Shown in pieces: positions 27,514-49,500 of a stretch of DNA of 64,000 nucleotides. Made by a program: the position numbers. The stretch covers positions 53,134,001-53,198,000 of the forward strand of contig OX597831.1 of NCBI GenBank assembly GCA_951406725.2, read 5' to 3'. The stretch is from Octopus vulgaris. Its lineage: Eukaryota. Each line of letters begins with the position of its first letter. Positions within the stretch are counted from its first letter, which is position 1.

Positions 27514-29359
27514 TGTTACTTGTTTCTTGACCAATGTCACATAAGCAACACTACAGATAACAAAAGTCCTACAGAGCTAAACTTTGATCCTTTTCTTTAC
27601 TCATACTTTCAACTGAAAAGCATCTCAAAATTCACCCCCCCTATTCTCTTTCTTACTATTATTATTGGTATTATTCATAACCTTATTGTCTTTCACTATA
27701 TATTTGTTTTTTTTTTTATTGTTTTTCATTTGTTTGTTAACAAGACTCTGTAAAATTATCTCATGACTAGCTCTCCCCCACTTTCCCTCACCTTCCTTCT
27801 CCTCCCTCCCTATCTCTCTTCTATCTTCTCCCACACACTGTGTGGACTAATCCATCTGAATAGCAGGGTACAAAAGTTACACTGATCTGCTTATAAGACT
27901 AACCTTAAGTGTCTCTGCCAGTTCAGCTTAAGACAGTTTCATAGGTCGGTGTTGGTCAAATGCCATTGACTTAGCTTGCTTCACTGACTGGCTGGCTTGC
28001 TGTAAGTTCTCTGTGTCTCGCTCTGCCTCTGGTTCCTACTCTCTACTGCCTACACCTGCCCCTGCTGTCAATGGAAGCTCAAGCTATGTATGATGATTAC
28101 ACAGTTGTAGACAAGACACACTTTCAGTGCTGGTGTGTCCTCCCTTGTCAGATGGCTGTCTTTTCAATGGTAGTACTATGTTCTAACTACCATTATATCA
28201 TTGTTGATTCTTCTACCGATTCCTGTGATGAAAATAATGTCTGGGCACCAATGTGAAAGAAGGAAACAAAAAGAATGAAAGAAAGAAAGAAAGAAAGAAA
28301 AGACTGATAGACTTTGAAAAACTGGAGCAAAACAAAAACAAAAAAAAATGAAAAAGAAGAAACAAGCGGCATTTCAGATCACCTGTGTTCGTGGAGATAG
28401 TGGTATTTGCGGCATTTACGGTTGTGAGTGCTGTTCTGTAAAGAATGGTCAGTTTGTATATTCACACACATATGAAAACACATACATCTCTACATGCACA
28501 CACACACACACATACAGAGGCACACGTTATACATATTTATGTAGATATGTTTGTTAACAATCAATACGTAGACACCTCATTGTGCTTGTTTAGTTTAACA
28601 TTTTGTTTTATGAAAATTTAGCTTCAGTATCTTTTTTATAACTTTTGCTATGTTTTCCGTTGCTATTGCTGCTATCCTTTCTAATTCTTTTTCTTTTTAT
28701 CCTCCACTTCATTCTTATTGTATTCATAGAATATCCATTTTTTTTTTTGTATGAAAATATGTTTTTGATTTCTTATTAGGCACTTTTTCTCTGTCTTTAA
28801 GAAATTTGTGTAATATTCATTGCAATTGGTCAATTCAGAAACAACAGTTACATATTTAGTTCTGCTAAGTACAATATACTTTTTTTAATGTTTTTTATAA
28901 TATTTTTTTCAAACTGTTAGTTGTCTTCTTATCAAAATGCTTTGTTTTTATTTATTCTAACTACATTCCCTTATGAAGAAATATAACTATATAACTTCAA
29001 AATGAAGTTATATAGTTATATTTCTTCCTAAGGGAATGTAGTTAAAATAAATAAAAACAAAGCAAACAAAATAGATATAGAGTAATTATTGGTAGACTAT
29101 TGGCACAGATGATTTGTTTTCATTGATGAAGATTTCTGTAGAACTAGCCATGCTTCTTTTTGGAAATGCTGGAAGCAGAAAGTTGATGCAAATGTTTGCC
29201 ACAAATTTTAATGAATAACATACCTCAGGCTTTTTTTTATTATTAGATTTCTCCATCTGCTGGGTTTGTTGCCTTTGCCATCATTTAGGATTCACCCACC
29301 CTGATAGGCCAAATGCACACCTGGACAACAAACCAGAAATTTCTAAGTCCTTGCATGTA

Positions 29360-29390
<31 letters not shown>

Positions 29391-46500: not shown

Positions 46501-49500
46501 TGGTTCAGATGTTTCCAAGATGGCCGAAAAAATGTCAATATTGACGAATGTTCTGGGAGACCCACAACCAGCAGAACTGAGAAAGACATCACAAATGTTC
46601 GTGCAGCTGTAAGGGGAAATCATCAAATCACCATCTATGAGTTATCAGAGGATGTGCAGATTAGTTATGGTTTAGTTCAGTCCTTTATCACTGAAGATTT
46701 GGGTATGAGATGCACGTCTGTCAAGTTTGTGCCAAAACTGCTTCCAGCTGACCAAAAAGACACTTGGGTTTCATTTGCACAAGATTTTCTTGATTGTGTT
46801 AAGAATGGTGAAATCTTTTTGAAAACTTTGCATAGACCTCTGAGCAAACATCGCCAAGCTTTTGGCAAAATTTGATGTAAATTTTCTGCTCAACTTTCTC
46901 TGTAATGATCAATACAATGATCACACGCTACACACCTTCCTTCCAAGCACTGCTGTAAACAGTGGAAATAAGCTAGAATGTTAAAACTTAGGGCATATGC
47001 ACAACAGAGTACAAGATCAATCTGAGCCAAGTGGCTTCACTCTGCATGCTTTAGCTTTGTTAATATAGCAACAATCCGGATACTTATTGATCAGACCACA
47101 CACACATACACATCAGAACCTGGTGCAGTTCCCCAGCTTACCAGTTTGCAATCAAACCGCCTAACCCATGCCAGCATGGAAAGCGGACGTTACAAATGAT
47201 GATAGCTATCAGCTTTAGCAGATTCTTTCTTTTAGTGGTTATCTTTGTCTAAATGCTTTTCCTTTATTTGGAAGAATGGTTTGTGACTTATTAGGGTTTG
47301 GATAATGGATAATTTTGAATGGATAAACTAACTCCTCTGAAGTTGGAAATATTGACTTAAGAAAGAAATGCATTTAATTTGTGACTATGACAGAACATAA
47401 AATACCTTCAGTTTGTCTGCTGCTTGCTATGAGGTTTCAAAGTAGTAATATATTGAATTTAGCAGGATTTGCATTACATGTACAAGTTTAGAATTTTGTT
47501 GTAAGTTTACTTGGAATTAATATTATGCTACCCCAGTTGCACCGTCCAACCCATGCCAGCATGGAAAGCGGACGCTAAATGACGATGATGATGATGATGA
47601 TGTGTATGTCTCTCTATAATTATTTTGAACAAAATAAATTTTGAGCCAGAATGAAGTGTTAATAATGTCTATGAAATATTAAATGTTATAGAGGGGTAAT
47701 TAGGAAGGTTTTTTTTAAAAATCAAGTTGGTGTCTAGTTTTGGATTCTTTATTGCAGTTACTTCCAGAAGCTAAAGTAGTTCATTTGTTGACTTTGTCTT
47801 GCACAGGACAAATAAAATCCACAAAGAACTATTGTGACTTAATAATAAATGAAAGGGTTAAGAAAATATCGGAGTTTTTATAGATAAAATTCCTTGAGAA
47901 AGATGAAACTGGGTTTTCCAAATTTTTTCATTTTTTTTAGCAGTAAAAAAGTCTGTATGTTGTTGATTGATGTCAAAAAGGATTTTTTATATGAAAGTGT
48001 TGGCCATTTCTTATTTTAAATTTAAAATTATAAACATACATACTCGTGTTGTTAGGCTACTATCTCTTATATTTTTCTTAGCATAAAATTAACCAAAATA
48101 TTTGAGAATCACTTGTTTTTTGTTGACTATAAAATGATCGCAATGTTTTTTTTTAATAACTTTAATTCTCACATTTTGTCAATCAAACTAAAAACAAACA
48201 AATAAAACCCAACAAAAACTAACTATTCCATACTAAATACTCGATATAAAAGCATCTAATATTTGTGATAAATGAGAGCTTTAGTCTGTCTTCTTAATTG
48301 GAGATTTGAGACTGTTGATGTTGAAATATTTAAGAAGCTGCTGGTTCTAAGTGGCAGGCCAGTGTCTCTTTACCCTTGATGTTGTTCACAGTGGAGAAAG
48401 TTTTATCTTACTTTAAATTTTACTCAGTGAGATTCAACTTCTCCAACTGCAAACTTCATCAATCTCTCGGACTTTCAATGGCTGCCAACAGTATGCATCT
48501 TCATTTTATTTCACTATGGTGATCGTTATTTATTTATTTATTTATTTATTTTTCTTATTTGAAATTAATTTGAAATAAATGTTTTAGTTTTATCCATTTT
48601 ATATGTTATATTTTTATTTCATATATTTTAAAATTAATTTATTATTTCTTTTGTTGCAATAAAAGTTATTAAAAAAAATCTAAAACCTCTTCATAACTTT
48701 ATTTAAAATTTTAAACAAAAATTAGTTGTTATACGATCTGTTGTTTACATTTGCAAAGAATGAATTGACTGAATGACTGAAATTAATGCAAAGCCATACA
48801 TAAGTCACTTTAATTTAATGAATTCTGTTTTTCTTTTACTTTAAATACCAATCTAGCTTTATGCAAAGTGTATAATAATTATGCTTTAAAGCATTTTCCG
48901 AAAACTAATACAATTTTCTACATGGTAAAATGTATTATTGATGAAAAATTCCAATCAAATCAAGCCATGATAGTGTGGAAGAATGACTTCAATATTTTTA
49001 TGCTAATTAATTTTGTTTATAGAATTCATCTAAATATTATTGTTGGTTGCAATAATTTAGAAATAGTAAGTCAGCTCTGTCTGAAGATTTGGTAGTAATT
49101 ATTGCTGCTAAATTCATGAATTTCTCGAATATTTTAAATAATTGTCTTAAGATCTACTGAATGGATGTCTGGAACTAAATTTGTATCTTTAACCCTTTAA
49201 CATTTAGACCAGCCATGTCCGACTCATATATTCCATCTCTTTTATGTTCAAACAGGCTAGATCATATAGCCTCTCATATCTATCCTCCAATGTCATTCTA
49301 AAAATAAACAATCACATCATTAAAATCTCGAAGTTATGAATTAATGCATGATTAATTCAAAACAATGTGAATCAATAAACATTACATTTGACAGAATGTG
49401 AATGCTAAAGGGTTAATAATGGTAAGGTTTGATGAAGTAGGTATCAGCATTTGGTTTTGCTTCACAGTAGAAAATGGGGAAGCATTAAAAATATATATAG

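What the first reader, a model, noticed from the sequence alone, without database searches (positions are those of the whole stretch)
27830..48462. Nested miR-750/miR-1175 transcription unit inside the giant SZT2 intron
Seen: both precursors lie on the sense strand within one 51.9-kb intron that is over 10x longer than its neighbours, 16 kb apart, in the order 750 then 1175. Established: mir-750 and mir-1175 are a protostome cluster, reported as gut-enriched in insects; SZT2 scaffolds KICSTOR in amino-acid signalling to mTORC1. Inference: a gut microRNA cluster is embedded in, and possibly co-regulated with, a nutrient-sensing gene, and has been stretched by transposon insertion. I do not know whether this host-gene link is published.
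Basis: partly seen in the sequence, partly recalled or inferred. Interest (0 to 1): 0.8.

Follow-up and report, generated by a model that had tools for sequence, protein, structure and literature searches.

The report
Octopus SZT2 intron hosts miR-750 and miR-1175
Two well-known invertebrate microRNA genes sit, in the same direction as the host, inside one very long intron of an octopus nutrient-sensing gene (SZT2), and this host link is already in print for one of the two, so the finding is real but ordinary.

Summary
Seven SZT2 exons lie on the + strand. Each translates to an exact substring of the NCBI Octopus vulgaris SZT2 protein (7 of 7). The intron between exon E (8905-9067) and exon F (60991-61121) is 51,923 bp, GT..AG, phase 0. 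That is 12 times its longest neighbour (803-4,255 bp). On the + strand it holds a mir-750 hairpin (32313-32393) and a mir-1175 hairpin (48383-48455), 15,989 bp apart, both in unique sequence. The mature arms match sequenced snail miRNAs 22/22 and 21/22.

The host link is published. Liu et al. 2025 (PMC11848845, Table 2) list '1,175~szt2' as born in a sense intron at the Protostomia node. That paper sampled no cephalopod, and its main text never mentions 750.

A separate nested transcription unit starting at 27830 has no support and could not be tested. Nothing is found there by Rfam, repeat, ORF/Pfam or CpG analysis. Stretching by transposons is partly supported: at least 28% of the spacer is dispersed repeat.

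Co-regulation with SZT2 and gut expression in octopus are untested. Verdict: a correct annotation of a known linkage in one more species, of low to moderate interest.

The parts
116..484 (+). SZT2 exon A (residues 669-790 of the O. vulgaris protein P0031)
   Evidence: The translation is an exact substring of P0031. It matches human SZT2 in the PDB at E 8e-15. tblastn results are.
1288..1512 (+). SZT2 exon B
   Evidence: Exact substring of P0031 at residue 792. AG/GT boundaries are shown.
2612..2690 (+). SZT2 exon C
   Evidence: Exact substring of P0031 at residue 867.
4513..4649 (+). SZT2 exon D
   Evidence: Exact substring of P0031 at residue 893.
8905..9067 (+). SZT2 exon E, which ends on a full codon (residue 992)
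   Evidence: Exact substring of P0031 at residues 939-992. The donor GTATGT starts at 9068.
9068..60990 (+). Giant phase-0 intron, 51,923 bp, hosting both hairpins
   Evidence: GT..AG ends. Residues 992 and 993 are adjacent in P0031 and in relatives from Argonauta, gastropods and bivalves. There are no Ns. 23.2% of it is intra-window repeat.
27830..28250 (+).
   Evidence: No Rfam match and no repeat. ORF 27975-28253 has no Pfam family. GC is 45% and CpG o/e is 0.10.
32313..32393 (+). mir-750 precursor hairpin; the mature 3p arm starts at 32363
   Evidence: Rfam RF03330 at 33.7 bits, below the gathering score. The fold has z -3.9 on + against -0.6 on the - strand. It matches bgl-miR-750-3p 22/22. 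It lies in unique sequence.
32394..48382 (+). Spacer of 15,989 bp between the hairpins, holding dispersed repeats
   Evidence: 28.4% is covered by intra-window repeats. By my reading of the table, 7 HSPs of a ~400-bp family lie at 34.3-36.3 and 40.9-41.1 kb. There is a weak Tc1/mariner-like ORF at 46498-46872.
48383..48455 (+). mir-1175 precursor hairpin; 5p arm from 48390, 3p arm 48428-48449
   Evidence: Rfam RF03189 at 51.9 bits against a gathering score of 51. The fold has z -7.2. 21/22 to bgl-miR-1175-3p. 19/22 to bgl-miR-1175-5p by my hand comparison. It lies in unique sequence.
60991..61121 (+). SZT2 exon F, which starts on a full codon (residue 993)
   Evidence: Exact substring of P0031 at residues 993-1035. 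The acceptor TTCAG ends at 60990.
63389..63546 (+). SZT2 exon G
   Evidence: Exact substring of P0031 at residue 1037.

Best explanation
The window is part of the SZT2 gene of Octopus vulgaris or a species with an identical protein here. Its 51.9-kb phase-0 intron carries two canonical, conserved microRNA genes, Mir-750 then Mir-1175, in the sense orientation. This is the octopus instance of an old protostome linkage between mir-1175 and szt2 that is already in print. Shown here: the identity and position of the hairpins, their strand, the exon structure and the repeat content. Inferred: every SZT2 pre-mRNA contains both hairpins, so Microprocessor can crop them from the host intron, and the host supplies at least a basal level of both miRNAs. 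Any tissue-restricted (gut) output would need an added internal promoter, which is neither shown nor excluded. I put host-driven against own-promoter transcription at roughly even odds. The 16-kb spacing is best explained by accumulation of dispersed repeats in an expanded octopus intron.
For: Rfam matches on the + strand. Mature arms match sequenced Biomphalaria miRNAs at 22/22 and 21/22, with 0 of 100 shuffles giving a match. Stable hairpins. 7 of 7 exon translations are exact substrings of the O. vulgaris SZT2 protein, with exons E and F adjacent at residues 992|993. All six introns are GT..AG. [quoted passage not shown] In Biomphalaria both miRNAs are 'PCG - Intronic' on one scaffold, 7.3 kb apart. 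In oyster they map close together and co-vary. Relative to the snail arms, the octopus mir-1175 carries a G-to-A change in 5p and a C-to-U change in 3p at positions that face each other in the fold. That is consistent with a compensatory G:C to A:U change. This is my inference, because the snail hairpin itself was not available.
Against: mir-750 scores below Rfam's gathering score (33.7 against 60). No small-RNA reads were available, so expression and homogeneous 5' ends are not shown. The P0031 model is a database annotation, and I saw no transcript evidence for the E-F splice. Midgut-only expression of miR-1175 in Anopheles, and the very variable, co-varying levels in oyster, fit an own promoter better than passive release from a host that I recall (from no call) as broadly expressed. 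'750~szt2' is absent from the main text of PMC11848845, so the mir-750 link may be younger or lineage-restricted.
Confidence: 0.9

Rival explanations
1. Independent nested transcription unit: the two hairpins are made from their own pri-miRNA, started by a promoter inside the intron. They would then be regulated separately from SZT2.
For: miR-1175 is expressed only in the midgut in Anopheles (PMC2175301 passages). Oyster mir-750 and mir-1175 have a coefficient of variation above 100% and co-vary. [quoted passage not shown]
Against: Nothing marks 27830-28250: no Rfam match, no repeat, no Pfam-bearing ORF, and CpG o/e 0.10. No CpG-island-like stretch lies within about 4.8 kb upstream of mir-750. 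The only windows with CpG o/e of at least 0.64 between the exon E donor and mir-750 are at 10.5-11.2, 18.1-18.5, 22.9-23.6, 28.3-28.7 and 30.0-30.4 kb. All have 27-34% GC and only 5-10 CpGs per 400 nt. No transcript data were seen.
Confidence: 0.4
2. The giant intron is an assembly artefact that wrongly places the miRNA locus between SZT2 exons E and F.
For: The intron is 12 times longer than any neighbour. I saw no read-level evidence for the assembly.
Against: There are no Ns in the window. The exons on both sides are collinear with the annotated protein. The same miRNA-szt2 linkage is reported from other protostomes. Both miRNAs are intronic in a protein-coding gene in a snail.
Confidence: 0.03
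3. The hairpins are decayed or chance look-alikes that are no longer processed.
For: mir-750 is below the Rfam gathering score. There are no expression data.
Against: The 22/22 and 21/22 mature-arm identities were matched by 0 of 100 shuffles. The 5p arm of mir-1175 is also conserved, 19/22 by my hand comparison. Both folds are strong.
Confidence: 0.03

Closest known systems
MIR-1175~szt2 sense-intronic linkage (Liu et al. 2025, Mol Biol Evol, PMC11848845, Table 2)
   Same: It has the same miRNA family, the same host gene family and the same sense-intron arrangement, and is dated to the Protostomia node.
   Different: That study's protostomes were C. elegans, Ixodes, Drosophila, Crassostrea and Lottia, with no cephalopod. 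Its main text does not mention mir-750, intron position, intron size or spacing.
Mir-750/Mir-1175 pair in other molluscs (Biomphalaria glabrata, PMC12261956; Crassostrea gigas, PMC7488030)
   Same: The two families are linked on one scaffold, both 'PCG - Intronic' in the snail. In oyster they are clustered and co-varying.
   Different: The gap is 7.3 kb in the snail and 16.0 kb here. The host gene is not named in the passages I saw. In oyster two mir-375 copies map nearby, whereas the mir-375 motif has 0 matches in this window at up to 3 mismatches.
Mosquito miR-1174/miR-1175 midgut cluster (Winter et al. 2007, PMC2175301)
   Same: It contains a mir-1175 family member in a tight cluster. It is the source of the 'gut-enriched' label.
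   Different: The partner is the mosquito-specific miR-1174, 168 nt away, not mir-750. No host gene is mentioned ('intron' occurs 0 times).
Classic functionally coupled host-miRNA pairs such as mir-33 in SREBF (listed as 33~srebf1 in PMC11848845 Table 2)
   Same: It is an old sense-intronic miRNA kept in a metabolic regulator gene.
   Different: Functional coupling of mir-33 with its host is recalled knowledge. For mir-750/1175 and SZT2 no functional link has been tested, here or in any paper I found.

Membership tests
MIR-1175 (Rfam RF03189) | The covariance-model score reaches the curated gathering score | tested here: met
   51.9 bits against 51, full model 1-72, + strand.
MIR-1175 (Rfam RF03189) | Conserved mature 3p and 5p arms | tested here: met
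   21/22 to bgl-miR-1175-3p. 19/22 to bgl-miR-1175-5p, with the first 8 bases identical, by my hand comparison.
MIR-1175 (Rfam RF03189) | Small-RNA reads from both arms with homogeneous 5' ends and 2-nt offsets | not testable with these tools
MIR-750 (Rfam RF03330) | The covariance-model score reaches the curated gathering score | tested here: not met
   33.7 bits against 60. E is 9.9e-06 locally and 7.9e-04 for the whole window. The shortfall lies in the 5p arm and the loop (alignment).
MIR-750 (Rfam RF03330) | Conserved mature 3p arm including the seed | tested here: met
   22/22 identical to bgl-miR-750-3p, and 0 of 100 shuffles match.
MIR-750 (Rfam RF03330) | Strand-specific stable hairpin with the mature arm in the stem | tested here: met
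   -37.7 kcal/mol and z -3.9 on the + strand, against z -0.6 on the - strand.
MIR-750 (Rfam RF03330) | Small-RNA reads with homogeneous 5' ends | not testable with these tools
   No read data are available.
SZT2 (KICSTOR subunit) | Sequence homology to SZT2 over collinear exons | tested here: met
   Exon A matches human SZT2 chains in the PDB at E 8e-15. 7 of 7 exon translations are exact substrings of the O. vulgaris SZT2 protein. The exons are collinear with 12 of 12 relatives tested by tblastn, although a few lack a hit for exon D, F or G.
MIR-1175~szt2 intragenic linkage (PMC11848845) | The miRNA lies on the sense strand inside an intron of the szt2 orthologue | tested here: met
   The hairpin at 48383-48455 (+) lies inside the intron 9068-60990 of a + strand gene.
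MIR-1175~szt2 intragenic linkage (PMC11848845) | The same (orthologous) intron hosts the miRNA in other protostomes | not testable with these tools
   No animal genome collection is on hand, because genome contigs holds bacteria and archaea only. The paper's supplements were closed.

The most novel reading that the evidence does not exclude
The retention of Mir-1175, and in molluscs also Mir-750, inside SZT2 since the protostome ancestor may not be passive synteny. It may be a functional circuit in which gut miRNAs released from the pre-mRNA of an mTORC1 amino-acid-sensing scaffold tune nutrient responses, as mir-33 does with SREBF. The mir-750~szt2 half of the linkage and the specific phase-0 intron are not described in the main text of any paper I could search.
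Probability: 0.1. Interest if true: 0.55.

Novelty: already known. Interest (0 to 1): 0.22.

Why it matters
The finding is a clean, correct annotation. It places two conserved miRNAs and seven SZT2 exons exactly, and it adds a cephalopod to a host-miRNA linkage reported from other protostomes. It would matter more if the linkage proved functional, with gut miRNAs coupled to a nutrient sensor, or if mir-750 turned out to share the same intron across phyla. Neither can be shown from this window alone.

Tried and rejected
- **Whole-window Rfam search at E up to 1.** It gave 48 matches. Apart from the two hairpins, most are to mir-297, mir-466, mir-3149 and mir-1277, many at spots where one search finds TA or CA arrays. 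All are far below their gathering scores, so I rejected them as low-complexity artefacts.
- **mir-375.** It lies near the pair in oyster. Its motif has 0 matches here at up to 3 mismatches.
- **tRNA-derived SINE heads.** ARAGORN found 0 genes.
- **Pfam scans for a nested coding gene.**
  - 0 of 20 ORFs had a family at E up to 0.01.
  - 0 of 30 ORFs were above the curated cutoff, with one sub-threshold low-complexity MASE8 hit.
  - 1 of 6 was above the cutoff at relaxed E (HTH_48). Sub-threshold names, such as Pertussis_S2S3 at E 0.027, are chance.
  - The two scans covered 50 of the 136 ORFs of at least 70 aa listed. That should include every ORF of at least 90 aa inside the giant intron, which I picked by eye. 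The rest were not scanned.
- **The ORF at 46498-46872.** I took it from memory to be mariner. It has only weak support (SETMAR E 0.06; E 0.002 against the mariner remnant).
- **The RT-like look of 12085-12500 (-).** No Pfam support.
- **CpG-island search for an internal promoter.** Nothing convincing was found.
- **Paper search.** It was badly framed and returned only general cephalopod papers.
- **First protein search.** It covered proteins of 241 to 2,000 residues only and so missed the cephalopod SZT2. One search found it.
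Full report
**Observation**

Rfam at gathering threshold finds one RNA family in the 64-kb window. It is mir-1175 at 48383-48455 on the + strand, at 51.9 bits against a gathering score of 51. A more permissive search finds mir-750 at 32313-32393 on the + strand, at 33.7 bits. That is below its gathering score of 60. Its E-value is 9.9e-06 in an 801-nt search and 7.9e-04 in the whole window.

- 32363-32384 is identical over 22 nt to bgl-miR-750-3p, as printed in a table of PMC12261956.
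- 48428-48449 differs at one position from bgl-miR-1175-3p.
- Each motif occurs once in the window, and 0 of 100 shuffles gave any match.
- By my hand comparison, the 5p arm from 48390 matches bgl-miR-1175-5p at 19 of 22 positions, with the first eight bases identical (passages of PMC7328434).

Both stretches fold into long hairpins on the + strand. The energies are -37.7 kcal/mol (z -3.9) and -32.0 kcal/mol (z -7.2). The mir-750 stretch does not fold well on the - strand (z -0.6). Both hairpins lie in sequence that is unique within the window.

**Host gene**

The ORF at 114-527 matches human SZT2 chains in the PDB at E 8e-15. Six SZT2 relatives from a first protein search and six more from a second align to the + strand in collinear order. 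A few of them lack a hit for exon D, F or G.

I searched the spliced model exon by exon and left the joined step out. Each of the seven exon translations is an exact substring of P0031, named by NCBI as an Octopus vulgaris protein and by UniRef as KICSTOR complex protein SZT2 (7 of 7). The window therefore comes from that species or from one with an identical protein here. The Argonauta hians protein is 77-96% identical per exon.

| Exon | Coordinates |
|---|---|
| A | 116-484 |
| B | 1288-1512 |
| C | 2612-2690 |
| D | 4513-4649 |
| E | 8905-9067 |
| F | 60991-61121 |
| G | 63389-63546 |

The six introns are 803, 1,099, 1,822, 4,255, 51,923 and 2,267 bp, and all are GT..AG. Exon E ends on a full codon (residue 992) and exon F begins on one (residue 993), so the giant intron is phase 0. 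The annotated protein joins the two exons directly. There is no N in the window. The spacer between hairpins is 15,989 bp.

**What else is in the intron**

- Self-comparison gives 427 non-self HSPs of at least 50 nt. They cover 23.2% of the intron and 28.4% of the spacer between the hairpins. They cover 15.7% of the part upstream of mir-750 and 30.9% of the part downstream of mir-1175.
- One ~400-bp family gives 32 HSPs in both orientations at 67-85% identity, counting the query's own 100% match. By my reading of the table, 7 of them lie in the spacer, and others lie in the short introns.
- A mariner remnant lies at 56202-56686 on the - strand. It matches Pfam HTH_48 at E 2.1e-05, above the curated cutoff. 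It matches Mos1 transposase in the PDB at E 1.4e-11. It sits downstream of mir-1175, not between the hairpins.
- An ORF at 46498-46872 inside the spacer is only weakly transposase-like.
- I scanned 50 of the 136 ORFs of at least 70 aa against Pfam. These should include every ORF of at least 90 aa in the giant intron, which I picked by eye. No domain suggested a nested coding gene.

These figures are lower bounds for transposon content, because elements present once in the window go unseen.

**The nested transcription unit**

- There is no Rfam match and no repeat.
- The one ORF there that I scanned (27975-28253) has no Pfam family.
- GC is 45% but CpG o/e is 0.10, against a window mean of 0.22.

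CpG is depleted throughout. I saw no CpG-island-like stretch within about 4.8 kb upstream of mir-750. With no transcript or small-RNA data, the question of an internal promoter stays open.

What follows from the anatomy is that any SZT2 pre-mRNA includes both hairpins in processable orientation. The host can therefore supply them. Arguments for an own promoter are indirect.
- miR-1175 is midgut-only in Anopheles (passages of PMC2175301).
- Oyster mir-750 and mir-1175 are among the most variable miRNAs and co-vary (passages of PMC7488030).
- Liu et al. argue that old intragenic miRNAs tend to become independent of their hosts (section 6 of PMC11848845).

**Literature**

Is the host link published? 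Yes, for mir-1175. Table 2 of Liu et al. [quoted passage not shown] I read the abstract, sections 6 and 16, part 1 of section 7, and search passages.

Its protostome sample was C. elegans, Ixodes, Drosophila, Crassostrea and Lottia, so no cephalopod was included. The string '750' does not occur in its main text.

Full-text searches for SZT2 together with 'mir-750' and for SZT2 together with 'mir-1175' each returned 0 papers. Broader searches found no other statement of the link.

In Biomphalaria, both miRNAs are tabulated as 'PCG - Intronic' on scaffold KE714253, 7.3 kb apart. The host gene is not named in the passages I saw. The main text of the octopus miRNA paper PMC9699675 has 0 occurrences of '750' or '1175'. 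That the octopus miRNAs are already catalogued in MirGeneDB is my recollection, not a tool result.

**A small point in favour of selection on the hairpin**

Relative to the snail arms, the octopus mir-1175 has a G-to-A change at 5p position 9 and a C-to-U change at 3p position 13. These positions face each other in the fold. This is consistent with a compensatory G:C to A:U change. It is an inference, because I did not have the snail precursor.

**What stayed unchecked**

- I had no animal genome collection. The genome-contig collection holds only bacteria and archaea, and I did not use it. The orthologous intron in other animals therefore could not be examined.
- I had no small-RNA or RNA-seq reads, so expression, 5'-end homogeneity, the E-F splice and tissue bias in octopus are untested.
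- That SZT2 scaffolds KICSTOR in amino-acid signalling to mTORC1 rests on the PDB molecule name and on recalled literature.

**Verdict**

The arrangement is a further instance of a published, ancient miRNA-host linkage, so I file it as already known.

The modest additions are these:
- the cephalopod case;
- mir-750 in the same intron as mir-1175;
- the exact phase-0 intron;
- a repeat-laden 16-kb spacing.

The claim of a separate nested transcription unit and the idea of functional coupling to nutrient sensing remain untested conjecture.

Noticed in passing
window 32040-32116, both strands: There is an A/U-rich hairpin 197 nt upstream of the mir-750 hairpin. It folds with z -4.1 on either strand. 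It gives a weak mir-190 match (28.6 bits against a gathering score of 48, E 0.0037) only in the 801-nt search, and it is absent from the whole-window list. It is unique in the window. It could be a lineage-specific cluster member or just an inverted repeat.
   Followed up: partly
window 56202-56686 (-): This is a mariner transposase remnant in the giant intron, downstream of mir-1175. It matches Pfam HTH_48 at E 2.1e-05 and Mos1 transposase in the PDB at E 1.4e-11. It is broken into at least two frames.
   Followed up: yes
window 46498-46872 (+): A 125-aa ORF inside the inter-hairpin spacer has only weak transposase-like similarity: SETMAR DNA-binding domain at E 0.06, and E 0.002 against the mariner remnant. 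No Pfam family lies above its cutoff.
   Followed up: partly
window 53082-53486 and 31 other HSPs (e.g. 8468-8738, 23765-24039, 35640-36017, 59426-59830): A ~400-bp dispersed repeat family occurs in both orientations at 67-85% identity. It is present in the giant intron and in the short SZT2 introns. ARAGORN finds no tRNA-like head.
   Followed up: partly
window 6900-7500 (intron D-E): This is the highest-GC stretch of the window (52%), with CpG o/e 0.71 against a window mean of 0.22. It is itself repeated elsewhere: 31639-31828 matches 7100-6917, and 31621-31822 also matches 58698-58896. It looks like a second, GC-richer repeat family.
   Followed up: no
window 32399-32416 and 32556-32615: A short CAG run starts 6 nt after the mir-750 hairpin. 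A (CA)30 microsatellite lies about 160 nt downstream.
   Followed up: no
whole window: CpG is strongly depleted throughout, with mean o/e 0.22 at 35% GC. I recall that such depletion is typical of methylated gene bodies, but I did not test this.
   Followed up: no
window 10838-10941, 11745-11815, 15186-15337, 36031-36118: TA and CA microsatellites give sub-threshold Rfam matches on both strands to mir-297, mir-466, mir-3149 and mir-1277 (up to 52.5 bits against gathering scores of 81-100). These are low-complexity artefacts, not miRNA genes.
   Followed up: yes
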